Source: Balamuthia mandrillaris (lineage: Eukaryota). From it: 64,000 nucleotides of DNA. Both the position numbers and the translations under genes were made by a program. Under the pieces are notes generated by a model. The model saw only the letters and a list, made by a program, of their open reading frames with translations. It was not told where the DNA came from and made no database searches. The stretch is taken from positions 1-64,000 of the forward strand of contig JAVKOQ020000054.1 of assembly GCA_031835245.2 (NCBI GenBank). The letters are read 5' to 3'. Positions within the stretch are counted from its first letter, which is position 1, and each line of letters starts with the position of its first letter. Below are positions 235 through 64,000 of this stretch, in pieces.

Positions 235-286
235 TTTTTTTTGACTTACATAAGTGATTCAAATCCCCTCTTGCGCTACGCACATC

Positions 287-17215: not shown

Positions 17216-17261
<46 letters not shown>

Positions 17262-19079: not shown

Positions 19080-19130
<51 letters not shown>

Positions 19131-19656: not shown

Positions 19657-20158
19657 CGTTTATTATTTTTTTTTGTTTCGTCACACTCTTCAATGGAAGG
19701 GACAGAGAAGAAAAATGCAGAGGCAGTTCTTGTCCCTTGAAGGTGGTCTTGTGGTAGGTGTTGGCGAAAGATAAAAAATGGGTGGAAGAAGGGGTAATGG
19801 AGGAACAACAGTTGTCTCTTTTAGCCAAAGGAGAGAAGCGATAACATTACCAGGAAAAGGCAGGGGCAATAACGCCGATAATATCCTTTATTGAACCATC
19901 GGGGGCTTGCAAATTTCCGAATCCTGCCAATTGGGTATGAAATTTCGTCATCCAAACAAATTTTTCCCCGGTTGTCCATTGATGCGATCCGCCAATAACC
20001 TGCAGAGAATCGCTCCGAGTGGTTTTCTCCTCGTCATTTTCTCCAAGCCGTGACGTCGATTTTCATCGCCTTGGTTTTTTTTTGGGGTTCGTGTTATATT
20101 TCGTTGGCTTGCAGGGGCACATGTGCCTTGCATTTTTAAAAAAAAAAAAAAAAACAGG

Positions 20159-44748: not shown

Positions 44749-44832
44749 AACTGTTCCCATCGTTTTCGCTTCCTCCCTTTCTCTTCTTTCTCCTCTTTAT
44801 TCTCTTGTCGTTATTCATTCGCTTTTCGTTTA

Positions 44833-45637
44833 TCACAAGCTTGACACAAAATGTGAAGAAGATCGGAACGATGAGCAACTGGAAAAAGGGGTGAGAGAAG
44901 GAGGAACAAGCGGCAAAGCGTTGGACCAAGCGAAGCAAGCACCTAAAGTGTTGCTCGTGCTTCCCTCCATTCCCCCATCCAACAGAGCATAGGCAACGTC
45001 GCATGAGGATTCGTTCTCTTCGTACAATGGAGCAATCTCGATGAACAAAGGTCCTTCTGGGACCGCTTCATCCTCCTTCAACCACACGACCACCCGAATG
45101 GGAGAGTCGGGCCACCGATACGCAACACAATTGTTGTTGTGTTTGGCGTTGGTAGAGGTGAGATGTTCTTCTTGACCTCCAAGAAGTGTGCTCCAAAGCT
45201 TTCGTGCGTCGGGCAACATCCAAGCCACTGTGTGCAACGCCTTGACTGCTATTCCGTGTTTTGGTCTCTCTGCTGAATAGTCTATCTGCAGACACGATAA
45301 AAAAACTCAGTATCAGTGCACAGAGAAAGAGAAAAGAGAGAATCATTGAAAGAGAGGAGCAGAGAAGAAGATGAAAGAAGAGAGATGAGAGAGAACACCT
45401 TATGCTTCTTAAAGTATGCCAAAGGAACGTAACCATAGTCAAGTTCAGGGTGAGACTCTGCGAGTTGAATGACAACGCCAAGACCTCTCTGTTGAGGATA
45501 CAGGAATGCTTCTTTCCAACTTGGAATGTCGGTTCTTACCCCTACCACCTTTCGGGTTAAATGAACGACAACGTGAGCAAACAGAAATGTGAAGCAGAAG
45601 ACACAGAAGAACAAGAACGAAATAGATCGAAACGACA

Positions 45638-45668
<31 letters not shown>

Positions 45669-46559
45669 AAGAACAAGAAGAAGAAGAACAAGAAGAAGAA
45701 CAAGAACAAGAACAAGAACAAGAACAAGAACAAGAACAAGAACAAGAACAAGAACAAGAACAAGAACAAGAACAAGAACAAGAACAAGAACAAGAACAAG
45801 AACAAGAACAAGAACAAGAACAAGAACAAGAACAAGAACAAGAACAAGAACAAGAACAAGAACAAGAACAAGAACAAGAACAAGAACAAGAACAAGAACA
45901 AGAACAAGAACAAGAACAAGAACAAGAACAAGAACAAGAACAAGAACAAGAACAAGAACATAAGACAACATAAGACAACAACATGAACAAGAACAAGAAC
46001 GAAGAAAAAGAATATCTAGCAAAAGAAGAAGCAGGTGGGGAAGAACGAAAGAAGTTACTTTATAACCGAGTGCTTCGGCTCGTGCGACAGCTTTCTCCAA
46101 ACAAGGTACTTTGAAAGTTACGTGATGGACCCGCGGTCCGCCTTTGCTCCGCAAGTACCTCACCACAAAGTTTCGTTCATACTCCCTGGCAAACAATACA
46201 AAACAGTTAACAAATGGAAGACAGAAAAAAAAAGAGTTCACACATACTCGGCACTCAGCTCGGAATGGGGAGTGATGACTTCGAGTTTTGCGCCGTTGCC
46301 AAACTTCCACTGAGCAAAGTCAAAGGTCGGAGCACGATCGGCGTCATGTGGGATGCCGCCCCATCGCCCTTCCAGCAACTCTCCTAAAGAGGTTATAGAG
46401 GGAGGGAGAGAGAGAGAGAGAGAGAGGCGTTACATAAGCAAATGTCTTTTTTTTTTCGGAAGGATGATGAAAGCAACCCGCTTTGCTCAGGTCGTTCACT
46501 GCGCAAGAGATGTGATCCAACAAGATTCGCGGAGGAGGAGGAGAGCCTTCTTCTTCCAT
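44833..46559 (-). CDS. VOC/glyoxalase-family (methylmalonyl-CoA epimerase-like) protein, multi-exon
   Basis: LDHISCAV, KLEVITP, GPRVHHVTFKV, WKEAFLYP, VVIQLAE. Confidence 0.78.
45639..45960. repeat. (AAG)n-(AAGAAC)n intronic microsatellite
   Basis: Tandem hexamer array in a VOC gene intron. Confidence 0.95.
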
Positions 46560-46664
46560 TCTTTTTTTCGTTGGTGTTGAATTGTCGACCAGAAAAAACA
46601 ATAGCACTAGAATGAAGGGAGAGGAGGGCGAGAACAATCCTCCAACCCTTTGCTCATGCAACCA

Positions 46665-46786
46665 ACCTGCGACCTATCTACTTCAACCAACTTGACAGTC
46701 AAGCCTTGCCGAGGAAGTTTGCTCGGCTCGGCCAGAGCAAGCGAAGGAAAGACGGGAGAGGTTGCAGCGACGATGCGATGTGTGAA
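46665..46786 (+). pseudogene. Collapsed remnant of an LRR family gene
   Basis: Fragments TCDLS, ALPRKFARL and ERLQRRCDV match the neighbouring LRR genes. Confidence 0.6.
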
Positions 46787-47020
46787 CGGAATGCCCCTGT
46801 TTTTTTGGTGGTGCGAACAGCTGAACTAGAGACACGTCAAGGAGTCTTGAGGAAATGAAAGGAGAAACCAAAGAGCACGACCCAAGATGAGCACTTTCAA
46901 TGAAGGTTATTCGAGAAGAGAGAAAAGCGAGCCAGAGAAGAGAGCACGAAGCAAGAAGGGGAGCAGGGCTAATAAGTAACTTAATAACCGACAAAGAAGA
47001 AGAAGAAGAAGAAAGGGCAG

Positions 47021-48719
47021 ATGGCATCAGGGTCAGGCGGTGAGGAAGAAGAGTTTTCAGCAGAGGAGGCAGAGGACAGCAAAACCCTTTCTCCCTTCCT
47101 TCAAGCCGTTACCACCTCCTGCGACCTCTCCAGCAACAGCTTGCCTAAGTTGCCGAGCACATTTGGGCTGCTGACCGCCCTCACCCACTGCGACCTCTCC
47201 TGCAACAAGTTAACGGCCTTGCCCGCCGAGTTTGGCCAGCTCACCGCTCTCACCCATTGCTGCCTCTGGGGTAACCGGTTGAAAGTCTTGCCGGGAGAGT
47301 TTGGGCAGCTGACGGCCCTCACCCGCTGCGACCTCCACGAGAACAAACTGAAGAGCTTGCCCACCGAGTTTGGTCGGCTGACCGCCCTCACCCACCTCAA
47401 CCTCAGCAAAAACTTCGGCCTGAAAGCTTTGCCCTCTGAGTTTGGCCAGCTGACGGCCCTCACCCGTTGCAACCTCTCCAGCAACAAGTTGAGGCGTTTG
47501 CCAAGGGAGTTTGGCCGGCTGACCGCCCTCACCCGTTGCGACCTCTCCCACAACGGCTTGAGGGCCTTGCCACGGGAGTTTGGCCAGCTCTCTTCCTTGC
47601 ACACCCTCGCCCTGGCCTCCAACAATTTGACGGCCTTGCCAGGAGAGCTTGGCCGGCTGACCGCCCTCACCCGTTGCGACCTCAACGAAAACTACAAGTT
47701 TGAGGGCTTTGCCAAAGGAGTTTGGCCAGCTCTCTTCCTTGCACACTCTCGTCCTGGCCTCCAACAAGCTGACGGCCTTGCCGAGAGAATTCGGTCAGCT
47801 CACCTCCCTCACGGATTGCTATCTCTGCTGCACAGATGCTTCCCTCTACCACCGGGAGCTCAATCGCTTGGCTGCACTGCCATCCTCCGCCTTTCAGCTT
47901 CTCCCTTTGTTTAACTCTGACATCTGTTCTCAGCCCTGTGCGAAGAAGGAGACCAAGCAGACCAAGCAGAGAAGAGCAACAAAGGGCAACAGAGGAAATG
48001 GGAGTGTGAAAAGTTTGTGGGATTTGGCTGGAGAGGCGGTGCTGAGAAACCAGCTTTTGCCGACAGGCATGTTGGCCCCTGTTCCTCAATTGCCTTTCAC
48101 TTGGCCTGCTTCTTCTCTGCGCCTAGAACCCGAAAATAAAGTTGAAGACGAAGAAGAAGATTATGAAGACGAAGAAGAAGAAGAAGAAGAAGAAGAAGAA
48201 GAACAAGAAGAAGAAGAAGAAGAAGAAGAAGAACAAGAACAAGAACAAGAACAAGAACAAGAAGAACAAGAAGAACAAGAAGAGGATGAAGAACAAGAAC
48301 AAGAAGTGTACGAAGCAAGCGCTGAAGACGAATTTGAAGAAATAGAAGTAATAGAAGTCGAAGAGGAAAAAGAAGAAGAAGAAGAAGAAGAAGAAGAAGA
48401 AGAAGAACGAGAAGAACAAGAAGGAGAAGGAGAAGAACAGCAACAACAGCAGCAGCAAGTGAAAGCAAAAGACGAAGCAAGTGTGGAGTGGATGGTACTG
48501 CCAGAGGAAGTGACGGAAAGACTGGAAAGGTTGCAGCAACGATGCGATGTGTGTGAATGTCTGTTTTTGGAGACAACGAGAGAAGAGGAGGAAGAAGGAA
48601 GAAGAGGGAGGCTTGTGCGAAGATATTGGGACAAGGAAAGAGAAGTGTGGTGGGAGTTGTTGTGCTGCAGCCAAAGGTGCTTGACTTCGCCTCTTCCTGG
48701 CTCTTTGCTTGAACTTTGA
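47021..48719 (+). CDS. LRR protein copy 1 (~11 LRRs, BC-box-like motif, Cys-rich tail); 1-nt frameshift at ~47700
   Basis: 23-aa LRRs; SLWDLAGEAVL; poly-Glu; RCDVCEC...LLCCSQRCL. AAGTTTGAGG here versus AAGTTGAGG in a sister repeat. Confidence 0.85.
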
Positions 48720-48976
48720 AAGGAATAATTTTCAACATTACGCCCTTTCTTTGAATGGAGAAGAGACCACTCGAAACAAAAGTCTTTTAAAGAAGAAAAC
48801 AAAGAGTACAACCCAAGATTGGTGCTTTGCAAGCCCAACGCCAAGCGTTCTGCTTTTCCTCTCGGCAGACACCAGAAGCAAATGATCCTGGAAGCGAGCA
48901 CGAAGCAAGAAGGGGAACAGGGCTAATTAATAACTTATTGACATAGAAGAAGAACAAGAAGAAGAAGAAAGGGCAG

Positions 48977-50305
48977 ATGGCATCAGGGTCAGGCGGTGAG
49001 GAAGAAGAGTTTTCAGCAGAGGAGGCGGAGGACAGCAAAACCCTTCGCTCCTTCCTCCGAGCCGTTGCCACCTCCTGCGACCTCTCCGCCAGCGAAGAAG
49101 AATTGACCAAGTTGCCGAGCACATTTGGGCAGCTGACCGCCCTCACCGACCTCGACCTCAACGAATGGGACCTGGAAGCCTTGCCCCCAGAAGTTGGGCA
49201 GCTGACGGCCCTCACCCGCTGCGACCTCGGCGGGAACCTATTGAAGAGGTTGCCTGCCGAGTTTGGCCGGCTGACCGCCCTCACCCACCTCGCCCTTAGC
49301 AGCAACCAGCTGAGGAGCTTGCCCCCCGAGTTTGGCCTTCTGTCCGCTCTTTCCTTCTGTGACCTCTCCTACAACAAGCTGACCAGCTTGCCTCCTTCCT
49401 TCGGCCAGCTGACCGCTCTCACGGAGTGCAACCTCTACTACAACAGCTTGAGGGCCTTGCCACGGGAGTTTGGCCAGCTCTCTTCCTTGCACACCCTCGT
49501 CCTGGCCTCCAACAAGCTGAGGGCCTTGCCGAGAGAATTCGGTCAGCTCACCTCCCTCACGGATTGCTATCTCTGCCGCACGGACGTTTCCCTCTACCAC
49601 CGGGAGCCCAATCGCTTGGCTGCGCTGCCCTCCTCCGCCTTTCAGCTTCTCCCTTTGTTTCGCTCCAACCTCCGCTATCAGCCCTGTGCGAAGAAGCAGG
49701 CCAAGCAGAGAGGAGCAACAAAGGGCAACAGGGGAAATGGGAGCGTGAAACGTTTGTGGCATTTGGCTGGAGAGGCGGTGCTGAGAAACCAGCTTTTGCC
49801 GACAGGCATGTTGGCCCCTGTTCCCGACTTGCCCTTCACTTGGCCTGCTTCTTCTCTGCAGGAGAAGGACCAAATAGAACAAGATGAAGATGGAGACGAA
49901 GAAGAAGAAGAAGAAGAAGAAGAAGAAGAAGAAGAAGAAGAAGAAGAAGAAGAAGAAGAAGAAGAAGAAGAAGAAGAAGGAGAAGAACAACAGCAGCAAC
50001 AGCAGCAAGTGGAAGCAAAAGACGAAGCAAATGTGGAGGGGATGGTGCTGCCGGAGGAAGTGAAGGAAAGACTGGAAAGGTTGCAACAACGATGCGACGT
50101 GTGTGAACACCTGTTTTTGGAAGCGGCCCCTGCGCAAGAAGAAATGGAAGAGGAAGCGGTGGAGGAAGAAGGAAGAGGGAGGCTTGTGCGAAGGTATTGG
50201 GACAAGGGAAGAAAAGTGTGGTGGGAGTTGTTGTGTTGCAGCCAAAGGTGCTTGACCAAGCCCCTTCCTGGCTCTTTGCTTGAACGTGGGCAGGAACAGA
50301 AGTAG
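48977..50305 (+). CDS. LRR protein copy 2 (~8 LRRs), intronless
   Basis: Tandem paralogue of copy 1, sharing upstream sequence, N-terminus and C-terminus. Confidence 0.9.
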   Translation: MASGSGGEEEEFSAEEAEDSKTLRSFLRAVATSCDLSASEEELTKLPSTFGQLTALTDLDLNEWDLEALPPEVGQLTALTRCDLGGNLLKRLPAEFGRLTALTHLALSSNQLRSLPPEFGLLSALSFCDLSYNKLTSLPPSFGQLTALTECNLYYNSLRALPREFGQLSSLHTLVLASNKLRALPREFGQLTSLTDCYLCRTDVSLYHREPNRLAALPSSAFQLLPLFRSNLRYQPCAKKQAKQRGATKGNRGNGSVKRLWHLAGEAVLRNQLLPTGMLAPVPDLPFTWPASSLQEKDQIEQDEDGDEEEEEEEEEEEEEEEEEEEEEEEEEEEGEEQQQQQQQVEAKDEANVEGMVLPEEVKERLERLQQRCDVCEHLFLEAAPAQEEMEEEAVEEEGRGRLVRRYWDKGRKVWWELLCCSQRCLTKPLPGSLLERGQEQK

Positions 50306-50469
50306 ATACGGAGTGCCAGTCTTCAAAGTTTTTATTTGTTTCTCAAGTGTTGCCACTAGTTGTTGTCGTAAAAGCATTCAACAACAAACACCGATAGATA
50401 AATAGATGGATAGAAAAGTGAGAGAGGAGGGAGAAGAGAGGGAGAGAAAGAAAGTAAAAAGAGAGGAGA

Positions 50470-53059
50470 TCAACAAGGCACACCCTGAGCAGAACCCTGT
50501 TGATGATGAGGTTCAACAACAGCATCGGCGTTGCCATTGTTGTCACCTCCAAAAGAAAACGAAAGCGCCGATTGTTGTTGTGGTGAAGAGGAAGATGGGG
50601 CAGAAGAAGGAAGAAAAGGAATGCTTTCGCCAGAGGAAGAAAGAGACGAAGAAGAGGACGCCAATGACGGTGGCGGTGATGGCGAAGAGGAAGAGGAAGC
50701 AGCAGTAGATGAAGCGGAGGTCGGTGCTGAAGCTTTCGTCCGCGGCCGTAGTTGCGACATCAAACTCCAAATCTGAGCAAACGTGATGCGAACATCAAAG
50801 GAAGCATCCTCGGACTCGGCATACTCCTTCAGGATCATGAACAACTCCAACCTTCCCACCCTCTCCTTCAGGAAGGTGTTGTAGTCAGGCAGCTTCTTGA
50901 TCTGCTCATCCGCCGTGTCCGCCAACTTTGCGTACAGTCCCTCTGCCGCTCTGCTAACATCTGGTGGAGGCATCATCAAAGCCGAGTTTTGTGAAGAAGA
51001 GAAACTAGGGGTTGACGAAGCAGAACCAGAAGAACCTGAAGGAGAGCATCCCCTTTCCAACAACGACTTGAGCTTGCGAATGCCTTTCTTGATGGAGCGC
51101 TGGGGATAGGCCTGACAGCTACATTGTCCTTTTGCTTCGCACACAGCCTTACTGCGGCACCACTCCGAGCCGTTGCGCAGCAAGCCCTTCTTGTGGCGCT
51201 TGGAGATGGTGGCCTTGGACTTGCAGTTCTTGAGGTGGGCCGTAACCACTTTTTGGGGAAAGAAGCATACATCAAGGGTAATTTGTGGAGGAGAGTCCTT
51301 GAGACCATCGTGGAGGAGGGTCACTGGAGGGGAGTAGATGCTGTCCGCAAGAACAAGGCCCGTGTTTGTTACCACTTTGGTTTTTTTTTTTTTTTGATTG
51401 TAGACAGGATTAGCGCACGAGAGAGAGAGAAGAAAGAAAAGCGAACAACAGGCAAGCGTTGAGAGCGAGGGAGAGAGAGAGAGCTAAGAATGAACAATAA
51501 CAAAAATATAACTACCGTGTATTTTCATCACAAAGACCTTATCAGCGGGCAAAAGGTCATAAAAGGTTGGTCCAAACCTAATTTCGTCGTGATAACTCAA
51601 CTTTCTCGGTTGCAACTCAGGGGCGCGTGGTGGTTGTTGTGGATCGATTGGATCTTGTTGCTGTTGATAGTCGGTGGATATCACAAAGCCAATCACAAAA
51701 TGGACAAAGGAGGCAATAGTCTGGATGTCGGTAGAGCTAGTGGAGGGTTGGTGGATCAATTTGTGAACTGGAAACGTGGCTGTGTCGAAGAAGTACTCTG
51801 GTAGGTGTTCGAACGTTATCCTATAGAGAGAGAGAGAGAGAGAGGAGATGAGTTTACAAACACGAACAAGAGAGCGAACACACAAGTATATATACAAACC
51901 CGATAGTGACGGTGTGAGAAGGAGGTTGCGCTGGGGAGGACGAGGCGGTAGTGACAGCTGCTTCAGCAGAGGTGGTGCCGTTATTGATCGCTTGAAGCTC
52001 GTTGCCAACAAAAGAAGATGGAGAAGGAGAAATGGTGTCTGTGGTAGTATGTTGTTGCGAATAATGATCCTGTGTCGATGCGGGCAGCTTCTCAGCACTT
52101 GATGCAGCTTCCAAGGATGACACAACAACCGACGAGTCTTGTTGCTTCGGTGGTACGCTCTGACTACCACAACTGGCCAAAGGAGAACGAGAAGAAGAAG
52201 AAAGCGTTTGATCGTTTGGTGAAGGGGTGGATGAATCAGCATCCATCCGTCCATTCAACGGCGAAAGAAAGGGGAGAGGCGATGGACGAACAGGAAGAGA
52301 AGAAGCTGTTGTTGTTACGGAAGAGCATGCTCCTGCTTTGCTACTTCCTCGGGTTTTGGCAGCAGCGGCAGCCAACGCAATTTCTTTGCTTTGCGAGTCA
52401 AGCTCTCCAGTCAGAACTTTCTCTCTCAGAGAAAGGAGATAGGAGGCCAACGCCGCAGTGTCTTGTAGCTGAGCATTGCTGTTGTTTTGTTGTTGATCGA
52501 TGGAAGAAGCAGGAGGCGCAGAAGCAGACGGAACTTCTTCCGCCATTGAAGTGGGAGCGCCAGCAGCATAAACATCTCCTGCGGCCATGCTCTCCAAAGA
52601 AGAGGAACGGGACATGTCGCTATCGGCACCCGCCAAGTCTCCATCCTCTTCCTCCTCTTCTTCCTCCTCTCCCTTTCTTCGCCTTCTCGAGGACGGTGAT
52701 CGTCGCTCTCCTTGTAGTTGCTGCTGCTCGCCTCCTGCTTCTTCGGCTTCATCCTCTTCGGAGCTGTCGCCGCCTGCTCCACCGTTGCTCAAAGGTGACT
52801 TTTGCCGCGAAGCAGAAGAGGCGAGCGGAAGCGGATCGGTCTTGGGTTTTTTGGAAGGAGAGGGCTGCGACGAACGGACCGCCGTCTCGCAAGAAGAAGA
52901 GAGAGAAGAAGGAACAGCAGCGGCAGCTGTTCCGTTGTCCTTCGCCTTTGTTATTCCTTCCTCCGGCTCGTACTTTCTCTTCAAAGAGGAGGAGGGAGAG
53001 GAAGAGGAGGCGTCCAGAGGGCTGAGGAGGGTCGGCTCAAGAGTTGCTGTTGTGTTCAT
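50470..53059 (-). CDS. Hypothetical protein, multi-exon; low-complexity N-terminus and Cys-containing globular region
   Basis: Three long minus-strand coding segments separated by CT-rich GT-AG introns; no family recognised. Confidence 0.6.
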
Positions 53060-53922
53060 CTCTTTGTTTTTTTAAAAAAATCCTTTTATTTTTTCACATT
53101 TTGTGAAAAAAAAAATAATGAGAAAAAAGGTTAGAAAAAAAAAAAGAGGAAATAAAATCCAACATAAACAACAAAGAAGAAAGCTTTGTAGGAAGAGAGA
53201 GAGAAAAAAAAAAACAAAGAGTGTATTCTTGATTGTCACATTTTTCAAAAAAAAAAAACAAAAACAAAAATCATCCGCCTCTTGCAATCAAAATGCGAAA
53301 AATACACACACTCGATACCTAAGTACCTTGACGGAGCAAAGTTAAAAATAAAAAATAAAAAGGCTTTCCCTTTTTCACTTGAGCTTTCTCCTCTCTTCTC
53401 TCTTCCAAGGCTGGCGACGGCGGCGGCGTGGCGGAGAGGGTGACCGAAACAACAAAACAAAGACCAAAAAGAAAATTTCGCACACAACAAGAAATATTTG
53501 TTCTTCTCAGCAAAACGGAAAATTGAATAAAAAAAAATATCAACAAAACAGCAAAAAAAAAAACACACACAATGCTTTTATTTATTTGTTTTTGCCATCA
53601 TCGACCATGCGTGCAGTGACGATAGTTCTCTGTGTGACACAGCAATAAGAACCAAGAGAGTAACAAACACCCGCACGCGCACACACAAAAAGGGGAGAGA
53701 GGGAAAACCAGCAAAAAAAAACTTCGGGAGTCACCCCTGTCACCTCCCCGTAAAACGCTTGCTACCAAGTTTCCCTTCCCCTTACAGCCAGCCGCACTAT
53801 TATTACCACCGGAAAAAAAATTCAAACAGATCGTCCGTACCCGGATGGTCGTGCGTTCGAACTCCAACTACCGCAAGAAAAAATGCAAAGAAAAAGAAAA
53901 GAAAGAATAAACAGTTTGAGAC

Positions 53923-53972
<50 letters not shown>

Positions 53973-54178
53973 TGGTGATAAGAAATCATAGAGAAAAACA
54001 ATTTATACGGCAAAAAATAACGTGTTGGCAAAAGATAAAAGAATAAGAGTAAGAGAGGGAGGAAAAGGTGAGAGGTTGGACCGAACAATAGCCTGAAACT
54101 CAGGCTATTGGGGTTTTTTTAAGTTGTTGTTGTTGAAGGTCCATTCCGGTGCACTTGTTCTTTTATTGCAAGAGGCGC

Positions 54179-56991
54179 CTAAGACGCACTTTGTACCATC
54201 TTTTGGCAGGCCAACAAAAGGTCAATGGCAATGTCGAGGGCGCCGTCCATGTCCCTGATCCTCTCCAACTTGATGCTGGCCAGGTTCTCCATGGCAAACT
54301 GGATGCATTGCTGCCTGAGGGACATCATGTCTGCTCTCTCCCTCATGATGGCGAGGTACGTGACGGCCATGATGTTTATTACAAAGCCGGGGGTGATGCC
54401 TGTTTGTTTATAGGTATATTAGCGAGAGAAGACAGAGAGAGAGAGAGAGAGAGGAAAGCAATGTACCATTCTGAATGTGCTGTTCGCAGAGCTTCTTCAA
54501 TGCGGACATGTCATAGTGGTGAGCCCAGTTGACAAGCTCGCAGGCAGGAAGAGGGTCAATCTCGGTCTCGCCATAATACACATACTTGAGCATGGACCTA
54601 AAGGCGGCCTCGCTCATCCTGAAAGCCTTCTTCTTGCCTGGGGGAAGGGTCTGAACGGTGAGGTCGACCAGCTTGAGCACGTCGGTCATGTCCTCATCGC
54701 TGGCCTTGGCGTTCTCCTTCTTCTTCTCGGAGAAGGCCTTGGCGAGCTTCTTGCTGTGTGCGGCGAGGATGGCCTTGTGGAAGGGAATGTTCTTGGCTTC
54801 GAGCTTGACAAAGCTGTCAGAGTACTCCATGGTCTCGTAGAGCTTCTTAAAGTCCTTTCGGAGGGTGGAGGGAGGGCAGGAGCCACGGTCCTCGGTCTGA
54901 GGGCCGGTGGTGGCCTTGGTGGCGTTGATGGCAACAACCTCCTGGAAAAGCTCAAGGCCGAGAGTGTTGATGGACTCCTTGAGCTGCACGAACTGAGCAA
55001 AGTGCTCAGGTTCAAGCAGGAAGTCGAGGCAGATACACTTGACGGTCTTCTCGCCGAGCGTGGAGCTCTGCTTGAGCAGCTCTACCACGTTCTTCATGTT
55101 GATGATCTGAAGAAGGTAGTCCTCAGCGATCCATCGGAGCCTGTTGAGGCCGTAGGCCCTCGCCACAATGATGAGGTGAAGCACGTCGATGGGGCTCATC
55201 TTGGGGAACTCCACCTTGTCGCAGTACAAAAAGTCGAGGAGGTAGTTCACAGAGGCCACATCGTGAGCCCTGACGTCCAGCTGGATGGGAGCCTTGCCCT
55301 TCTTCTTCCTCTTCTCCTGCTGTTCCTTGATGGTCTTGTGGAACTGAGGGCAGCGAGCGGTCACAATGGAGGTGTGAGCACCAAGGGCGGTGGTTCCTCC
55401 TCCAGAGATGTTCACAGCGAGGTTGAGATCGTGGAAGGCAGTCTTCAGGCCAGCGCCCTTGCGAAGGTTGATGTGGGAGAGCTCACAGTCAGGTTCAAGA
55501 ACAGCCTTGTCAGAGGTAGGTCGAGGGAGCCTGCGGCCACCGACAGCAGCGGGGGCAGCAGAAGAGGCGGAAGCGGCAGCAGAGGTATCATCGGTGGAAG
55601 CGACAGTGGGGGTGGCTCCTTCAGAGGCCTTGATGGTGCTTCCAGGAGTACTGGCGCTGTCCTCGGGGCTGCTGAGGTCTCCAGCGGTGGTACTCTCCTC
55701 GGTGACGGTAGAGTCTTTCTCCTTGCCCTTGTCCTTCTTCTTTTTCTTCTTCTTGCCATCAGCGGCAGCGGCAGCTCCGGTGGGCCTTGGAGAGCCAGCG
55801 CTTTCGGCGACGTGTCCAGCCCTGGAGGCCTTCCTCATCGGGCTGTTGCCAACAATGACCGCGCTTTGGGCCTGAGGCTCGTCCTTCTGTTGTTGGGCAA
55901 GGCTGGTGAAGGAGGGGGTTCCAACGACAGTGGGTTTGACGGTCTCCACCTGAGCGGCGCCCTCGGCGGATGTGCCTGCTCCCTCTCCCTTGGCGGCCAG
56001 TTGCTTCTTGAGGTCCTCGATGGTTTGGTCTTTGGCTTTGATGGTTTCATGGGCCTCGGCCAGCTTGGACTCCAACTCGGAGATCTTCTTGTCCTTCTCC
56101 TTTATTTGCTCGAGCAACTCTTCCTCACGCCCTGAAGATTTGGCCTCCTTTGAATACGAGCGTCGATGAGTTACCAACCGAAACAATTGAGGAAAAGAAG
56201 GGGAGCAAAGAGAGGAGAGCATACCGAGGAAGCAGCTGCAGAAGTGGAGGCAGTGGAAGAAGAGGAAGCGGCCGCCTCGCCCTTTGACTCCGTAGAGGTG
56301 GCTGTGGCGGTGGCCGTTCCCTCAGCCTTGGCCTTGTCGTTTGTGGCGGTGGCAGCAGCAGAACCTCCCTTGGCGACATCTGTGACAGATCCCTTCTTCT
56401 TTCTTTCTTTGCTCTGATGATGATTTTAAATCAAACCACACCCACAAAATCATCCACTGGACAAAAAAAAGGGGGTGGGGAGGGAGGCGGGGGGAAACCA
56501 ACCTTGATGGAAAGCGATCGTTCCTTCTTTCCTACCGCGGCCTTCTCCTTCTCGTTCTTGTCGGCCGTCTTCGCGTCCGCCTTGCCATCTCCTGCCTTGG
56601 CCTCTCCCTTCGCCTCGCTCGCTTCTCCCTTCTTTTCCTCCTTGTGGTGCTCTGCCGCCGAAGCTTTGTCTCCTCCCTTGTCGTGCTTTTCCGATGAAGC
56701 CGAGGCGTCCTTCTTTTCGGCTGCCGCAGCCGTTCCCTTTTCTGTCTTGCTCTCCGAGGCGCCCTTCTTTGTGTCCTTTGGGGTATCCTTCACCTCTTTG
56801 TCGGCATCTTTCTTGTCTGGCTCATCTGCTTATAATATAGATTAGTTTTTTTTGTTATAAAAAAGTTTTAAAAAAAGGATAAACAAATAAAGAAGAGAGA
56901 AGGAACGGAAAGAAAGAAAGGGAGAAAAAAAAGAAGGGTCGTTTGCGGTACCTTTGCTTTTCTTCCTAGCAGACTTGCTTCGAAGGGACAT
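54179..56991 (-). CDS. Tandem BTB/POZ-domain protein with charged N-terminus, multi-exon
   Basis: AHTSIVTARCPQF...LLDFLYCD and FHKAILAAHS...MLKYVYYG; ATG at 56991 inferred from splicing. Confidence 0.85.
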
Positions 56992-58096
56992 TTTGTTGTC
57001 CGACGAAGTGGACTTTGCTGGTTCTTTGGACGCCAGTTTGAACGGTTTTGTTTGGTTTTACACCTCCCCTTCTTCTTTATGATGTAGTGTACAGATGAGG
57101 GCGACTGTGGTGGGAAGAAACAGAAAGCAAGAAAGAGAGGAAGAAAGCCAAACAAGACTCTGCATCAGTTCGCTTTCTTGCAAACATACAATCCCTTCGA
57201 AACAAAAAACCAAGCAAAGACCTCTTACCCTGGAGTACGGAAAAACACTCTGGCAGCAAACCTCTTGGGAAAACAAAAAAAAAAAGAGAGAGTAGAACAG
57301 GGAAAAAAATATTAACTAGGGGAAGCCTTCCGCAAAGCCCTTAGTATTGCTCTCCTCTGGTTTGAAAATAAAGAAAAAAAAGCTTAAAAAATAACTATTT
57401 TTTTTTCCCTTTTCGGACTTCAGTGGGACCAACGGTCAAGTTTTTTTTTCTTTGTATGCGACCCGCGCTCCCCAACCTATTTTTTTTTTTTGTCTGTGTG
57501 TTGTCTTTTGGGTTTTTTTTTTGAAGAAGAGGCGCCAGTGCACGCCATTGGCGGGAATAAAGAAATAGCATGATTTCTATTGGTCGCCGGAGTTACGATG
57601 TCGACAAAATCTTCTCGCAGCAAAAGAAAGAAATACTCGCCGTTGTAGGGCAGGCCATGTCTGTAGCAGCTGCGAGGGGGACTTCTCCTGCCTGCAACAC
57701 ATGGCAACACATTTCAACGTTAAAGTAGCCCTCTTTTTTCTTGTCGTACTACAAGTGGAGTTAATGATAATAATGAATTTAAACTAAAGAGTTCTAACAA
57801 TATCTGCGAAGCCTCTCTTCCGAATGCTTTGTGTCGTTTCTCAGCCCTGGAGTCAGACATCATAGCATACCAACCTCTCTTGTCGTCGCTCAACCCCCAA
57901 CCTTAGCACACAACCTGTGCCAGTTGCTTTGGCAAATGGTAACTGATTCGTGTAAAGACTCCGTGACGACACGGTAAACATTTCGAGACGACACGAAAGG
58001 AGGTATTTCTATTCTGACCAGCAATGCCGCTCAAGCTGTTCACCTTTTGACTTCCTGGAAAAAGCGTAAAAGAGAAGAGAGAAGCAGACTCGAAGC

Positions 58097-59341
58097 ATGC
58101 TCCTGTGTGCCAGCGGCCGGAGGGGGGCTTGTCCCTCCTCCTTCTCTTCCTCGCCCTTTTCTGGCTGTTTTTCATCCTCCTCCAAACCTGCATTGCCTTT
58201 GGTGCATCGGCTCAGCTTCCGGCCGGCCCATCTCGTTCCTTTCTCCTCCCGGCCTTTTGCAGCTGCTACTTCTTCTTCCTCTTCTCTCTTTCGTGCTCCT
58301 CGTTCTTCTCTCCTTTCTTCGTCTTCGCCCTCCCCTTCTCTTCTTCTTCTTCGAGCGGCGAGCAAGAGTCGCCCCTTCTTCTTCACCGCAGCTCCCAAAA
58401 GACGAGAGATCTCTTCCTCCCCCGCTTCCTACGGCAGTGGCAGCTCGGCGCTGAGCATGAGGCAGGGCTTCCTGGCGGGTCTGGCGTGTGCCTCCCTCCT
58501 GGCCTACTGGACGCTGGAGGAGGTGTACGGACCCATCGACCACGCTCTCGATCGAGCCCGTCGTTTCTCGGTGGCCGCCAAAACGGTACTACCGGATTTC
58601 ATCGTTCTCTCGCCTCTCGCTCTCCTCTTCTCACCTTGGTTTTGTTTTCAACAACAACAGGCTGTGCTGGTTGCGTATGACTACAAGTCGAGTTTAAGGG
58701 GTGTCACCGGCGAAGAGAGAAAACGGGTCATCAAAGAAGTTCATCAGCGGTGCGTTCTTGTTTCACTCCGTTCCTCCTCTTCTCTCTCATTTCACATCGT
58801 TTTGTCGTTCTCACTCTCGTTCTTGCTGCTCTCATTCTCCGTTCTCCTCGTCTTCTCCTCTGTTCTCTGTTTTACGTTCTCTCTCCCTCACGCTCTCTCT
58901 TTGCTCCGCTTTCTCTCGCGCGCTCAACGACAAACAAAAAAACAGATCTGCAGAGCGACTATTAGCCAGCTTCCGCAAATTGGGCGGCATCTATATCAAA
59001 GCCGGGCAACACATCTCATGCCTGGAGTACATTCTCCCTACGGAGTACACCTCCACTATGTCCCCTCTGCACGACCAGGCCCCGACCGAGTCCTTTGACA
59101 ACGTGGTGCGGGTCTTCAAGGAAGAGTTTGTTGGCAGCCATCCCGACGAGCTCTTCGCCTTGTTCGAGAGAGAGCCAATCGCGGCGGCTTCGTTGGCTCA
59201 GGTCCATCGGGCGGTGAGGTATGATGGGGAGGAAGTGGCTGTCAAGGTGCAGTTTCACGGCCTTCACCAGCGAGCGTGGGGCGATGTGAGGACTATCGCC
59301 TTGCTTATCGATGGTGTTGCTTGGGTTTGTTGTTTTGCTTT

Positions 59342-59377
<36 letters not shown>

Positions 59378-59404
59378 ATTATTTTGATTCTCCGTTCTTT
59401 GTTC

Positions 59405-59445
<41 letters not shown>

Positions 59446-59586
59446 ATTCCGAGAATTGAATGTTAAAACAAGCCACGAGCAAAGGATGAAAGCACAAAAC
59501 ATAGAATGAGTGTATGCGATGCACCAACACAAAAACATGCATGCATACCACTGATTCCATTCTTATTCTGCTTCTCTGAAGCTCAT

Positions 59587-59622
<36 letters not shown>

Positions 59623-60377
59623 GTTCTTGACAATCTCTCCCTCCTTCTCCCTCCTCTTTCTCTCTCTCTCTCTCTCTCATGTGCTCTCTGTTTTATAATG
59701 CTTTGTTCATCGCTAACATAAGGACATTTGGCTGTTAATAGCTATTCCCCGAGTTTGAATTTAAGTGGTTGGTAACAGAGTTCAATAACAATCTACCAAA
59801 AGAACTTGGTTTGCTCTCTCTCTCTCTCTCTCTCTCTCCATTATTTATTTTCTGAATGTTGTACCGAGTAGATTTTGTGAACGAAGGCAGGAATGGAGAG
59901 CGGTTGGCTCACAACTTCAAGGATTATCCTCATGTTGGTGTACCCAAAGTCCATTGGGTACGTTTCTCGTTATCTAGCTTCGAATGTATCCACGTTTTTA
60001 TGATTTTGTCGTTGCTTATTCTTTTTTTCTCTTTCTTTCACTTTATTTCTTTCAACAGGACCTAACAACAAAACGTGTGCTTACGATGGAATACATACAC
60101 GGAAAGAAACTGGACGATATGAAAGGCCTGGAAGAACTAGGAGTGAGCGTGAAGAAGGCAGCGACCTTGTTGGCCACCGTCTTTAGCAAACAAATTTTTG
60201 TGGATGGGCTAGTTCACTGCGACCCTCACCCTGGAAACCTGTTAGTACGACGAGCTGATCGAAAGTTATGCAAAAGTGGTGCCTGGGATGTTAATGCTGG
60301 TAAAGCTCTCTCTTTCTCTCCTTTTCTCTTTATCTCTCTCCCTCTCTCTCTCTCCCTCCCTCCCTCCCTCCCCCCCC

Positions 60378-60413
<36 letters not shown>

Positions 60414-61180
60414 CGGTGATAACCTTTTTCTTGCTAAAGAACCAGAGCTTGTGGTTCTAGATCACGGCCTCTATAGAGAGTTAAACGATGAGTTTAGGTA
60501 AAACAGGAATGCTTTCTTCTTTCTTCATCCTTTTCACACGTCTTCTCCTTCAAAACAATCAATCCAAATATCGCAGATTAAACTATTGTCACTTGTGGTT
60601 ATCGCTGATAGAAATGGATGAAGCCAAGATCAAACATTATTCACAAGTGCTTTGCGGCCCCAAAGCCGACTATCAGCTCTTCTCCGCGATGCTGACCGCC
60701 AGGGCTTGGGATGCCGTCAAAGCCGGCCTCAAAAATAACAAGCACATGGATAGCAACGAAAAACAAGCTATCCTGATAGGCGCTCAGCAACGATTGGTTG
60801 AGATTGCTGACATTCTTCGTACTGTTCCTTCTGGTACCATCCCCCCCCCTCTTTCTCTCTCTCTCTCTCTCTCTCTTTAACTTTCTCTTTGGTTGTCTCT
60901 TTATCTCGCTCCATTCTCTCTTTACTTCTTACTCTGTTTTCTAACATACCTCATCTCTCTCCAAAACAAATAGATTTGTTGCTGTTATTTAAAACAAAGT
61001 AAGTGCATTTTTTGCTTTGTTTGTTTCCTCTTCTAAACTGACTGTTTTGTTTCTCAGTGATCTGTTGCGTCTATTAAACCGGCAGTTGGGCTCTCCTATA
61101 AATACCTTCACCATTACTGCTGACTACTGCATGAGAGGCATTCAGGAAGATAGCCTCCGAAAAGGTTTAAACTCGTCCCC

Positions 61181-61218
<38 letters not shown>

Positions 61219-61420
61219 CCCCCGCTTTCTCCCTCCCTCTCTCTCTTTCGCTCTCCCTCTTCCTCTCTCCTGTTTTCTTGTCTCACAATTATGATGAACC
61301 ACAGACCCAAGCTTGAAGAATCTGCTTCGGGTTAAGGCAGAACGCTTCGCGTGGACTTGCAAAGTTCGATTGATGGATTATGCTCTTTGGTTCTCTTCTT
61401 TCTTTTCTTCACAAAAGTAA
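58097..61420 (+). CDS. ABC1/UbiB (ADCK1-like) atypical kinase, multi-exon
   Basis: GGIYIKAGQH, AAASLAQVH, VAVKVQ, LTMEYI, HCDPHPGN, LDHGLY. Confidence 0.92.
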
Positions 61421-61450
61421 AAAAAATAGTGTTGGAAACGCGAAGAACTT

Positions 61451-62695
61451 CTATTCCGTTCTAAGCTCAATCCAAGAGCCAGGAAGGGGCCGGGCCAAGC
61501 ACCTGTGGCTGCAGCACAACAGCTCCCACCGCACTTGCCTTTTCCTATCCCAAAACCTTCGCACAAGACTCCCTCCTCCTCCCTCCCCCTCTCCTTCTTG
61601 TGCAGGGGCAGCCTCCAAAAACACGCATTCACACACGTCGCATCGTCGCTGCAACCTTTCCAGTCTTTCCTTCACTTCCTCCGGCAGCACCACCACACGT
61701 TGTTGTTCTTCACTTTCTTCTGCCCCTTTGGTTGCTTCTTCCTCCTCCTTCGCTGGTGGCTCGGTTGTGCGCTGCTTCTGGTGGTTCTGCTCCTGCCATG
61801 GATGAGGAGGCAGCCAAGCGAAGGGCAAGGGTGGAACAGGGGCCAACATGCCCACAGGTAAAAGCCGGTCCCTCAGCACCGCCTCTCCGCTCAACTGCCA
61901 CAGACTTTTGGGCATGTGGCTGGCCATGGCTGTCGCCCTCGCTTTCTCCTTCTCTTCTTCCATCCTTTCTTGCCCACAGGGCAGAGAGGAAAGGTCGAGC
62001 CAAGGAAGCAGCTGATAGGAGGAGGTTGGGATGGCCTTCAACTGGTTGTTGGAGAGGTCACAGTCGGTGAGGGCGGTCAGCTTCCCAAACTCTGCGGGCA
62101 AGGCCCTCAACTGATTGTAGGCGAGGTCGCAGTAGGTCAGAGCGGTCAGCCGACCAAACTCGCGGGGCAGGGCTGCCAGTTGGTTGTGCCAGAGCTCGCA
62201 GCGGGTGAGAGCGGTCAGCCGGCCAAACTCAGGGGGCAAGGCCTTCAACTGGTTGCCGGAAAGGTCGAGGTGGGTGAGGGCGCTCAGCTGACAAAGCTCA
62301 GGCGGCACGGCACTCAACATGTTGCAGGAGAGGTTGCAGCGGGTGAGGGCGGTCAGCCGACCGAACTCGCGGGGCAGGGCTTCCAGATTGTTGAAGGAGA
62401 GGTTGCAGTGGGTGAGGGCGGTCAGCCGACCGAACTCGGAGGGCAAGGCCGTCAACTCGTTCTTCGAGAGCTTGCAGTGGGTGAGGGCGGTCAGCCGACC
62501 AAACTCAGCGGGCAAAGCTGCGAGCTGGTTCTTGGAGAGGTTGCAGTGGGTGAGGGCGGTCAGCCGTCCGATCTCACCGGGCAAGAGGGTCAAATCAGCG
62601 CCCGAAAGGCAGCAGGTGGCAGAACGTGCAAAGGGTTGGAGGAGGGCGGGAAGTTCCCCGCCACGCACCATCGCGTCCGCTCCCTCGTGTTCCAT
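61451..62695 (-). CDS. LRR protein copy 3 (~9 LRRs), intronless
   Basis: Same 23-aa LRR, PKSLWQLSGEAVL and RCDVCECVFL...LLCCSHRCL. Confidence 0.9.
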   Translation of the reverse strand: MEHEGADAMVRGGELPALLQPFARSATCCLSGADLTLLPGEIGRLTALTHCNLSKNQLAALPAEFGRLTALTHCKLSKNELTALPSEFGRLTALTHCNLSFNNLEALPREFGRLTALTRCNLSCNMLSAVPPELCQLSALTHLDLSGNQLKALPPEFGRLTALTRCELWHNQLAALPREFGRLTALTYCDLAYNQLRALPAEFGKLTALTDCDLSNNQLKAIPTSSYQLLPWLDLSSLPCGQERMEEEKEKARATAMASHMPKSLWQLSGEAVLRDRLLPVGMLAPVPPLPFAWLPPHPWQEQNHQKQRTTEPPAKEEEEATKGAEESEEQQRVVVLPEEVKERLERLQRRCDVCECVFLEAAPAQEGEGEGGGGSLVRRFWDRKRQVRWELLCCSHRCLARPLPGSWIELRTE

Positions 62696-63149: not shown

Positions 63150-64000
63150 ATGAGCACACCGTTGGTATGTCCCACAGACCGCAAGAAATACGCGGTGAGG
63201 AGACTGCTGACCGACCTCAAGGAGTTGCAGCAACAGAGCCACGGCTCATGGAACCAAACGCACCTCATCAGCGCTTTGCCTCTGGACAACAACATTTTCT
63301 GCTGGCACGTCAACATTCGCTCCTCACCTCCGCTCCGCAGCCACAAGGAGGAGGAGGAGGTTGTCTATCATCTTCGTATTTGCTTTCCTGAAACCTATCC
63401 GTTGGACCCTCCCAACATTTTCACCTTCACGCCCATCCCTCACCCGCAAGTGTTCGGCTCTCGCGTTTGTTTGGGCCTTTTGGAGAAGGGAGGAGACCCT
63501 TTTGCCCCTCCGGAACAGAGAGAGTACAGCGGATGGTCGTCCGGCTACTCTGTTCTCTCCATCTTGATCCAGCTGAGCTGCTTCCTGACCGACTCGGAAG
63601 GAGCCTGCCCCTCCAAGAGCGTTCGAGAGGAGGCGATGAGCTTTCGGTGCAAGACGTGTCCTCATCATCCTTCCTTCGGACGTATATGGCCGCCTTTCAA
63701 CCACAACACTGTCGTCAACGACGAGACAAGTTTGAGGAATGGAGCAGCGGGTTCGGGGTTGACGAAAAAGAAGATGACGACGATAGCGGAGAGTCTTAAA
63801 ATACAAATGTTGAAAGCCGGTTTTGTGAAGCAAGGTGCAGAGAGCCAAGCAAAGGAGACAACCAGACACTTTCACCCGAATGGTGAAATGAGGAAGAACA
63901 GAAGAAGGCGGCGAAGAGGAAAACAGCCACCCAAAGGAACGAACGAAACGGAAGAAAGTCGTACCAAAACCGAACAACCAGAAGACGGACACAGAGGAGA
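63150..64000 (+). CDS. Ubiquitin-conjugating (E2) domain protein, runs off the window end
   Basis: Manual translation: RRLLTDLKEL, WHVNI, FPETYPLDPP, HPQVFGSRVCLGLL, GWSSGYSVLSILIQL; no stop before 64000. Confidence 0.88.
   Translation, partial: MSTPLVCPTDRKKYAVRRLLTDLKELQQQSHGSWNQTHLISALPLDNNIFCWHVNIRSSPPLRSHKEEEEVVYHLRICFPETYPLDPPNIFTFTPIPHPQVFGSRVCLGLLEKGGDPFAPPEQREYSGWSSGYSVLSILIQLSCFLTDSEGACPSKSVREEAMSFRCKTCPHHPSFGRIWPPFNHNTVVNDETSLRNGAAGSGLTKKKMTTIAESLKIQMLKAGFVKQGAESQAKETTRHFHPNGEMRKNRRRRRRGKQPPKGTNETEESRTKTEQPEDGHRG

What the first reader, a model, noticed from the sequence alone, without database searches (positions are those of the whole stretch)
47021..62695. Variable-cassette LRR receptors with a BC-box-like tail: possible amoebal immune repertoire
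Seen: three intronless paralogues with ~11, 8 and 9 LRRs. Most 69-bp units share a near-invariant DNA stretch (GAGTTTGGCCRGCTGACCGCCCTCACC), while the concave-face positions vary widely (CDLSCN, CCLWGN, CDLHEN, CDLGGN, CNLYYN, CELWHN, CDLAYN). Copies 1 and 2 have near-identical ends but different middles. The tail SLWxLAGEAV...LP..V..RL + CxxC...CCSxxC resembles LRRC58-type Elongin BC/cullin substrate receptors. Inference: repeat shuffling diversifies ubiquitin-ligase receptors, perhaps against intracellular bacteria or giant viruses.
Basis: partly seen in the sequence, partly recalled or inferred. Interest (0 to 1): 0.8.

Follow-up and report, generated by a model that had tools for sequence, protein, structure and literature searches.

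The report
Amoeba's reshuffled LRR ubiquitin-ligase adaptor family
These are three copies (one broken) plus a remnant of a multi-copy gene family, most likely of the amoeba Balamuthia; the copies carry reshuffled binding repeats and a tail predicted to plug into the cell's protein-destruction machinery, so they likely pick varied proteins for disposal, and a defence role is possible but untested.

Summary
There are three paralogues with 10, 7 and 8 full 69-bp LRR units plus an N-terminal partial repeat, and variable concave faces. Two corrections: copy 1 is frameshifted near 47,700 (also in a read-derived contig), and a collapsed fourth copy lies upstream. All 12 named relatives are Balamuthia mandrillaris proteins; contig depth suggests roughly 20-150 copies. 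The tail reads BC-box, acidic insert, Cul2-box motif, CxxC, beta-hairpin, CCxxxC. That is the order described for LRRC58, and the nearest language-model clusters are LRRC28/69/58 (leads only). No alignment or fold match to LRRC58 was obtained, and Elongin C binding is untested. Copies 1 and 2 differ less at silent sites in their ends (pS 0.14) than in their middles (0.30; p=0.004), and copy 1 holds a two-repeat duplication, so repeats were exchanged. Positive selection is not established: tree-based omega at concave sites is 1.1-1.4 (p=0.64/0.08), and convex sites vary similarly. Nothing here tests immunity. Verdict: likely a lineage-expanded, birth-and-death family of LRRC58-type cullin-ligase adaptors, analogous to nematode and plant F-box expansions.

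The parts
47021..48719 (+). Copy 1: LRR + tail gene, broken by a +1 frameshift in unit 8 (probable pseudogene, or an LRR-only 297-aa product ending at 47914)
   Evidence: break present in a contig of run X2
47159..47855 (+). Copy 1 LRR units 1-10 (69 bp; unit 4 is 72 bp, unit 8 is 73 bp); units 6-7 and 8-9 are a two-repeat duplication (88% identical)
47698..47700 (+). T run holding the +1 frameshift of copy 1
   Evidence: record 3
48012..48041 (+). Copy 1 BC-box-like helix SLWDLAGEAV (out of frame with the LRRs)
48498..48680 (+). Copy 1 Cul2-box-like LPEEVTERL, CDVC, hairpin and CCSQRC zinc module
48977..50305 (+). Copy 2: intact 442-aa ORF; partial repeat + 7 LRR units (49121-49603), BC-box-like 49751-49780 (R at position 1), first LP motif 49796-49822, acidic insert, Cul2-box-like 50048-50074, CDVC 50093-50104, CCSQRC 50234-50251
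61451..62695 (-). Copy 3: intact 414-aa ORF; partial repeat + 8 LRR units, BC-box-like 61906-61877, first LP motif 61861-61835, Cul2-box-like 61687-61661, CDVC 61642-61631, CCSHRC 61516-61499
46660..46815 (+). Collapsed fourth copy: a decayed LRR unit fused directly to a KERRERLQRRCDV tail fragment
   Evidence: (tblastn E 0.006; 80% DNA identity to copy 3 tail)
46941..47020 (+). Upstream segment shared with copy 2's upstream segment 48897-48976 (88.5% identical): the tandem duplication includes the 5' flank

Best explanation
These genes belong to a multi-copy family, most likely of Balamuthia mandrillaris, whose proteins are predicted to be LRRC58-type substrate adaptors of an Elongin BC/cullin ubiquitin ligase, and whose middle repeats were likely reshuffled by unequal crossing-over and patchwise gene conversion.

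SHOWN: the LRR array; the tail motifs and their order; tandem duplication; a broken copy and a remnant; and middles more diverged than the ends.

INFERRED: the LRR concave face, capped by the hairpin loop (invariant WD), binds a cytosolic target. The SLWxL[SAC][GA]ExV helix docks in Elongin C. LPEEVKERL contacts a Cul2/5-like cullin, with the acidic insert looped out. CxxC and CCxxxC bind zinc. The target is then ubiquitylated and degraded. The conserved 27-nt framework would give the homology at which exchanges start and end, producing new binding faces over evolutionary time under birth-and-death turnover.

The targets are unknown. Foreign proteins of endosymbionts or viruses are the most attractive guess (about 30%), by analogy with nematode F-box families.
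For: MOTIFS. The BC-box consensus [TSP]Lxxx[CAS]xxxΦ (PMC13342108) is met strictly in 12 of 16 family sequences that have the segment; the other 4 miss only position 1. Divergent members carry the canonical Cys (P0010, P0014, P0016). The Cul2-box ΦPxxΦxxxΦ appears as LPE[EDN]Vxxx[LMIV] in 12 of 13 sequences with CxxC, always 7 residues before the first Cys. The ordered pattern arose in 1 of 20,000 shuffles of the copy 3 tail (pattern written after seeing the sequence).

SPACING AGAINST LRRC58. Its Cul-box residues L282 and L290 are 8 apart, as in LPEEVKERL. L290 to L330 is 40 residues, and the shortest relative P0016 has 40 from the last L to the first C of CCxxxC (the L330-to-first-C pairing is my inference).

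STRUCTURE. The AlphaFold tail shows helix, helix, short strand, two-stranded hairpin, helix, with pLDDT 76-90 in most of the zinc module. That matches the described LRRC58 layout. Weak treble-clef matches appear (L24e/HIT/FYVE, Z 2.4-2.8, rmsd 2.4-5.5; TRASH/YHS clusters). Atlas neighbours of the tail are LRRC28/69/58 (leads).

EXCHANGE. Ends pS 0.142 and pN 0.044 against middles pS about 0.30 (Fisher p=0.004). Units c1_7, c1_9 and c2_6 are 91-97% identical. There are sharp patches: c1_1/c2_1 agree at 26 of 27 in the framework but differ in the strand, and c1_6/c2_5 agree at 18 of 18 in the last third. Strand and convex blocks show no correlation of distances (Mantel r -0.15).

FAMILY. 12 named B. 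mandrillaris relatives. Five X2 contigs at the CCSQ motif sum to depth 3298 against 19-31 for copy-specific contigs. Paralogue-like RNA reads are present in 3 of 3 RNA runs.
Against: No HMM or fold match to LRRC58/28/69 or to any BC-box protein: the tail profile over 1.84 billion representatives gave 13 hits, 11 family-like and 2 repeat artefacts. Atlas scores are below 0.9, a level shuffled proteins often reach, and the P0016 tail gave no usable feature hit. Each motif alone arises in 6-17% of shuffles. The BC-to-Cul2 spacer is 38-152 residues, far longer than the 15 residues between LRRC58's A267 and L282. A second LP motif 5 residues after the BC-box also fits the Cul2 pattern, so the cullin-box assignment is ambiguous; no Cul5-box match was found. 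The BC helix is modelled at low confidence (pLDDT about 51-66). Marin 2009 holds Cul2/Cul5-elongin complexes to be animal-specific (passages), and Balamuthia Elongin C and cullins were not checked. The PHI-like recombination test is borderline (p=0.053). Tree-based omega at concave sites is not above 1 significantly.
Confidence: 0.65

Rival explanations
1. Same adaptor fold, but the expansion is largely neutral or relaxed birth-and-death: GC-rich 69-bp repeats recombine ectopically, exposed sites drift, many copies decay, and no repertoire is selected.
For: Concave omega is 1.1 (p=0.64, F3x4) or 1.4 (p=0.076, F1x4), and convex variable sites give 0.79-1.15. The iqtree fit on concave codons alone gives 2dlnL 0.86 against omega=1. 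2 of 4 copies in the window are broken. Only 4 of 12 named relatives show the full architecture (some may be mis-annotated). Reads at 99% identity or more are few: 10 of 60, 9 of 83 and 1 of 7.
Against: Pairwise counts give concave dN/dS 2.06 against 0.34 elsewhere. In copy 1 vs 2 middles, concave pN is 0.50 against pS 0.18-0.30 (nominal p=0.02-0.03). The ends and framework are under purifying selection (omega 0.13-0.17; pN/pS 0.044/0.142).
Confidence: 0.35
2. The tail is a TRASH-like treble-clef zinc finger plus helices with another job (scaffolding, metal or thiol sensing), and the BC-box likeness is coincidental.
For: The only fold matches are weak treble-clef domains. The single motifs are common by chance. 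There is no Pfam SOCS/VHL-box hit at E<=1 among the families shown for 14 tails (25 of 30 shown).
Against: Motif order and spacing match LRRC58. The nearly invariant columns fall on the motif positions. LRRC28/69/58 lead the feature search for the tail alone.
Confidence: 0.2
3. A selected anti-parasite repertoire: adaptors that recognise endosymbiont or giant-virus proteins and are diversified in an arms race.
For: Large family, repeat exchange and pseudogenes; nominal excess of amino-acid change on the concave face. Precedents: C. elegans SCF/F-box induction by microsporidia and virus (PMC4063957 passages) and Ectocarpus ROCO LRR shuffling (PMC3341825 abstract).
Against: The tree-based test is not significant. 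There are no infection, target or cross-strain data. Plant F-box expansions have also been read as drift (PMC3030570, title in listing only).
Confidence: 0.3

Closest known systems
LRRC58 (and the LRRC28/LRRC69 group): LRR + BC-box + Cul2-box + zinc loop/beta-hairpin CRL2/CRL5 substrate receptor
   Same: SHOC2-like 23-aa LRR array of 8-11 repeats; then BC-box, ΦPxxΦxxxΦ, CxxC, two-stranded hairpin, second Cys pair in the same order; similar spacing from Cul-box to the end
   Different: Multi-copy and reshuffled, where LRRC58 is described as a conserved gene with one substrate, CDO1; 38-152-residue acidic insert between BC-box and Cul-box; the D-to-Cys distance is 11, against D317-L330 = 13; no -VLLG end; Cys in the LRR strand core; no detectable HMM homology
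Expanded F-box and BTB-MATH adaptor families of nematodes and plants
   Same: Lineage-specific expansion of a ubiquitin-ligase adaptor with a conserved ligase-binding end, a variable substrate end and many broken copies; immune role proposed (PMC4063957 passages)
   Different: BC-box/cullin-2/5 type rather than Skp1 or Cul3; an amoeba; diversification by exchange of 69-bp units inside one exon; positive selection not established here
Ectocarpus LRR-ROCO and NB-ARC-TPR repeat shuffling
   Same: Repeat-level shuffling, high birth and death, variable exposed sites (PMC3341825 abstract)
   Different: There each repeat is an exon and the output is a GTPase or NB-ARC; here the repeats are uninterrupted and the output is a predicted ubiquitin-ligase link
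Lamprey/hagfish variable lymphocyte receptors (recalled; VLR chains also appear among LRR fold matches)
   Same: LRR cassettes with conserved framework DNA and a variable concave face
   Different: VLRs are secreted or surface proteins assembled somatically from an empty germline gene and donor cassettes; here the genes are complete, apparently cytosolic (no signal peptide by inspection), with no donor cassette array or somatic assembly seen

Membership tests
LRRC58-type CRL2/5 substrate receptor | N-terminal LRR solenoid of about 9 repeats | tested here: met
   Pfam LRR_8 E 1e-19 to 1e-29; model pLDDT 96-98; Z 31.9, rmsd 1.8, 224 aligned to 4u08
LRRC58-type CRL2/5 substrate receptor | [quoted passage not shown] | tested here: met
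   Strict in 12 of 16 sequences, including copies 1 and 3; copy 2 and three relatives miss position 1 only; predicted helix
LRRC58-type CRL2/5 substrate receptor | Cul2-box ΦPxxΦxxxΦ shortly after the BC-box | tested here: inconclusive
   Two candidate motifs: one 5 residues after the BC-box (not predicted helical) and one 38-152 residues after it (helical, 7 before CxxC)
LRRC58-type CRL2/5 substrate receptor | Zinc loop plus two-stranded beta-sheet with C-cap loop | tested here: met
   Conserved CxxC and CCxxxC with a predicted hairpin; weak treble-clef matches Z 2.4-2.8; zinc binding itself not tested
LRRC58-type CRL2/5 substrate receptor | Detectable sequence or fold homology of the tail to LRRC58/28/69 | tested here: inconclusive
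   No HMM hit outside the family; feature search 0.81-0.84, leads only; no LRRC58 chain among listed fold matches
LRRC58-type CRL2/5 substrate receptor | Binds Elongin BC and a cullin; ubiquitylates a substrate | not testable with these tools
   No Elongin C or cullin sequence of this organism was available (no genome held)
LRRC58 orthologue proper | C-terminal -VLLG motif and D-F-C cap residues needed for cysteine-dependent control | tested here: not met
   LRRC58 residues; family ends differ and only WD is invariant in the loop
SOCS-box (Cul5-box) protein | ΦxxLPΦPxxΦxx(Y/F)L | tested here: not met
   0 of 17 sequences match, even with W allowed; LRRC58 binds Cul5 through a Cul2-box, so this does not exclude Cul5
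Diversifying immune-receptor repertoire (nematode F-box / Ectocarpus ROCO type) | Large family with birth and death | tested here: met
   12 named relatives, depth-based 20-150 copies (rough), broken copies
Diversifying immune-receptor repertoire (nematode F-box / Ectocarpus ROCO type) | Repeat shuffling | tested here: met
   Middle pS above end pS (p=0.004), two-repeat duplication, mosaic patches; PHI-like p=0.053
Diversifying immune-receptor repertoire (nematode F-box / Ectocarpus ROCO type) | omega above 1 at ligand-facing sites | tested here: inconclusive
   Pairwise 1.5-2.1; tree-based 1.1-1.4, p=0.64/0.076
Diversifying immune-receptor repertoire (nematode F-box / Ectocarpus ROCO type) | Induced by infection or recognises foreign proteins; variation across strains | not tested
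   No infection data; the cross-strain comparison was not obtained
VLR-type somatic cassette assembly | Incomplete germline gene, donor cassettes, clone-specific products | not testable with these tools
   The window holds complete genes and one deleted remnant; no genome or clone data

The most novel reading that the evidence does not exclude
Balamuthia keeps a selected cell-autonomous immune repertoire of 100 or more Elongin BC/cullin adaptors whose LRR binding strands are continually swapped by gene conversion anchored on a 27-nt framework, perhaps even between clones, to tag endosymbiont and giant-virus proteins for destruction.
Probability: 0.15. Interest if true: 0.82.

Novelty: new variant of a known kind. 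Interest (0 to 1): 0.5.

Why it matters
If the adaptor reading holds, this is a BC-box/cullin counterpart of the nematode and plant F-box expansions, in a free-living amoeba that lives among intracellular bacteria and giant viruses. It would make amoebal cell-autonomous immunity testable with defined receptors. It would also extend the recently solved LRRC58 architecture beyond animals and fungi, where one survey thought Cul2/5-elongin complexes animal-specific. The family is unrecognised in current annotation: its members are labelled hypothetical, TIR/Miro, TFIIS, integrase or receptor kinase. If the expansion is neutral, it remains a clear example of repeat turnover inside one exon.

Tried and rejected
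No whole genome is held, so the family could not be counted directly. The tail found nothing meaningful in PDB sequences (4 and 1 hits, best E 0.73 and 0.29), in Pfam, or among 500-2000-aa proteins (0 of 7983 candidates). Foldseek on the tail model had no match at E<=0.001. The full-length model returned only LRR matches. The LRRC58 structure 9T7V was not among the listed rows, so no direct superposition was possible.

No relatives were found in viral contigs (0 of 23 and 0 of 96 candidate stretches) or prokaryote genomes (0 of 126). The one metagenome hit, L001 (1 of 158; 24% identity), has stops and no LRR or BC-box and is rejected as chance. P0013 and P0015 are tandem-repeat artefacts and were left out of all counts. 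The word-based search is incomplete: it missed P0006 and P0008 although both were in the query, so protein counts are lower bounds.

An assembly slip as the cause of copy 1's break was rejected. A masking intron is not excluded: 12 GT-AG pairs could leave the frame open, but most lie in coding-like sequence shared with copy 2 and no RNA joint was seen at low depth. The pairwise dN/dS of 2.06 was not accepted as proof: pairs are non-independent, and codon bias depresses pS at concave sites. No RNA holder was listed in the run index. No complex prediction was sent, for want of an Elongin C sequence. Earlier scan findings: none. Mahrour 2008 is not held.

Full report
WHAT IS THERE. The window is eukaryotic (48.6% GC, intron-rich neighbours). 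No whole genome is held. It carries three LRR genes: copy 1 at 47021-48719 (+), copy 2 at 48977-50305 (+, 442 aa) and copy 3 at 62695-61451 (-, 414 aa). The block is exact in 2 of 25 units, within 2 mismatches in 12 and within 4 in 17. It has no match at 7 or fewer mismatches elsewhere in the window. All quoted concave motifs exist.

Copy 1 has a +1 frameshift in unit 8 (T run at 47,698-47,700). The LRR frame stops at 47,914 and the tail lies in another frame. A contig of run X2 covers 47654-47803 at depth 29.6 with no difference and no gap. X2 may be the sample the window came from, but its contigs are built from reads, so the break is in the DNA. A masking intron is not excluded (12 candidate GT-AG pairs, none with RNA support). 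Upstream of copy 1, at about 46,660-46,815, a decayed LRR unit is fused to a tail fragment: a collapsed fourth copy.

ORGANISM AND FAMILY SIZE. Every named relative of the tail is a Balamuthia mandrillaris protein: 5 of 5, and 12 distinct proteins in all. The window is therefore most likely B. mandrillaris (inference). A profile of 8 tails against 1.84 billion representatives gave 13 hits: 11 family-like and 2 repeat artefacts, which I dropped. Of the 11, P0010 is unnamed (ENA) and P0011 was not looked up. There were no relatives in viral contigs, prokaryote genomes or metagenome contigs, apart from one chance hit. Protein counts are lower bounds, since the word search missed two proteins that were in its own query.

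At the CCSQ motif five X2 contigs sum to depth 3298 (all contigs 3769), against 19-31 for copy-specific contigs. The tool warns that summed depth is no copy number. The mean per contig (about 660) implies roughly 20 or more copies sharing a word, and the sum puts a ceiling near 150 (inference). In three RNA runs 60, 83 and 7 reads were laid at 90% likeness, of which 10, 9 and 1 were 99% alike or more; most run on into other paralogues. The family is transcribed; these copies weakly at most. Only 4 of the 12 named relatives show the full architecture, though some may be mis-annotated.

THE TAIL. The order is: last LRR, linker, SLWxL[SAC][GA]ExV, LLPxGxLxPVP, acidic insert, LPEEVKERL, 6 residues, CDVC, F/Y-L, variable loop, RRxWD, VWWELLCCSxxC. 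[quoted passage not shown] The BC-box is strict in 12 of 16 sequences, and the other four, copy 2 among them, miss only position 1. The Cul2 pattern precedes CxxC by exactly 7 residues in 12 of 13. No Cul5-box matched in 17. Single motifs arise in 6-17% of shuffles; the ordered pattern arose in 1 of 20,000 for copy 3, but I wrote it after seeing the sequence, and copy 2 fails it at position 1.

LRRC58 is described as nine LRRs, BC-box, Cul2-type box, a zinc loop and a two-stranded sheet whose loop caps the LRRs (PMC13156300, section 11). Its key residues are A267, L282, L290, D317 and L330 (bioRxiv 2025.09.23.678073, section 11). L282-L290 fits the ends of LPEEVKERL, and the 40 residues from L290 to L330 equal the distance in the shortest relative, P0016. 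AlphaFold gives helix 53-63, helix 127-136, a hairpin at 165-182 and a closing helix, with a fairly confident zinc module and a low-confidence BC helix and insert (pTM 0.37). Fold searches give only weak treble-clef matches (Z up to 2.8). The feature search on the copy 3 tail lists LRRC28, LRRC69 and LRRC58 clusters at 0.81-0.84, which are leads only; on the P0016 tail it gave nothing usable.

So the protein works like an LRRC58-type adaptor with fair probability (about 0.65), but homology and binding are not shown, and it is not an LRRC58 orthologue (no -VLLG, no D-F-C cap). Against the reading: a 38-152-residue spacer, two candidate cullin boxes, and a survey that thought Cul2/5-elongin complexes animal-specific (PMC2785787 passages, with no mention of Amoebozoa). 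My recollection that Dictyostelium has Elongin C comes from no call.

REPEAT EXCHANGE. Copies 1 and 2 are a tandem duplicate including the 5' flank (88.5%). Over 199 end codons pS is 0.142 and pN 0.044 (one search had one segment out of register, corrected there). Over five matched middle units, which I paired by order and similarity, pS is about 0.30 (Fisher p=0.004 against the ends). The middles are therefore older than the duplication, as expected if they were replaced. Units 6-7 and 8-9 of copy 1 are an 88% identical duplication, c1_9 and c2_6 are 97% identical, and identity changes abruptly within units. Distances in the strand and convex blocks are uncorrelated, and the framework-strand correlation (r 0.37) vanishes without the three SSLHT-type units. 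A PHI-like test is borderline (p=0.053). Unequal crossing-over plus short conversion patches anchored on the framework is the simplest mechanism (inference).

SELECTION. I used 21 regular units, leaving out two irregular and two capped ones. Pairwise dN/dS is 2.06 at five concave positions (1.5 against whole-unit dS) and 0.34 elsewhere. Copy 1 vs 2 middles give concave pN 0.50, nominal p=0.02-0.03. On a tree with a shared silent rate, concave omega is 1.10 (p=0.64) or 1.40 (p=0.076), convex variable sites 0.79 or 1.15, and the rest 0.13-0.17. Recombination breaks the tree assumption, and the data are small. The framework is constrained and exposed sites are at least unconstrained; positive selection is unresolved.

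MECHANISM. The LRR face and the hairpin loop would bind a cytosolic target (no signal peptide by inspection). The BC helix would dock in Elongin C and the cullin box on a Cul2/5-like scaffold, and the target would be ubiquitylated. Exchange of repeats would create new specificities, and copies would die often. An immune role has precedents: SCF induction and F-box expansion in C. elegans (PMC4063957 passages) and LRR shuffling in Ectocarpus (PMC3341825 abstract). It has no evidence here (about 0.3). A comparison across strains or clones was not obtained, so ongoing or somatic shuffling remains open.

NOVELTY. Ten paper searches were run; those aimed at this family listed no description of it. 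The Balamuthia annotation paper mentions neither LRR families nor ubiquitin in the passages found (PMC10471605). The library lacks most subscription papers, and supplements were not read. PMC12589099 and PMC4053784 were seen as passages only; Thomas 2006 only as cited in PMC4063957; Mahrour 2008 is not held. Verdict: a real, apparently undescribed lineage-specific expansion of likely LRRC58-type adaptors with repeat turnover; a new variant of a known kind; interest 0.5.

Noticed in passing
window 254-4937 (+): Ty3/gypsy chromovirus-type LTR retrotransposon: protease, RT and RNase H in one ORF, integrase and chromodomain in an overlapping second ORF.
   Followed up: no
window 12643-13617 (-), 54408-56222 (-), 63150-63998 (+): Other ubiquitin-system genes nearby: an F-box protein, a BTB protein and a ubiquitin-conjugating-like domain just upstream of copy 3, on the opposite strand. 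Probably chance.
   Followed up: no
window 45557-45990: Long hexanucleotide microsatellite giving spurious ORFs in all frames.
   Followed up: no
window 48789-48856 and 61401-61334: The 3' flanks of copy 1 and copy 3 share about 69 bp at 78% identity, so the dispersed copy carried flanking DNA.
   Followed up: no
P0010: A divergent relative (31% identity) from an unnamed 621-base ENA contig has a canonical Cys BC-box and no LRR in the fragment; it may show the family in another amoeba.
   Followed up: partly
window 47159-62575, LRR position 11: The buried strand position that is usually Leu is Cys in 15 of 21 window units and 31 of 32 relatives' units; a Cys ladder of unknown meaning, notable given LRRC58's link to cysteine.
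   Followed up: no
window 15095-21076, 23498-24418, 36123-37484, 38463-44894, 58097-61300: Ordinary neighbours: 2-hydroxyacid dehydrogenase, ABC transporter, PAP2 phosphatase, bHLH factor, ceramide/sphingosine-type kinase, a 2143-aa coiled-coil ORF and an intron-rich ABC1 kinase.
   Followed up: no
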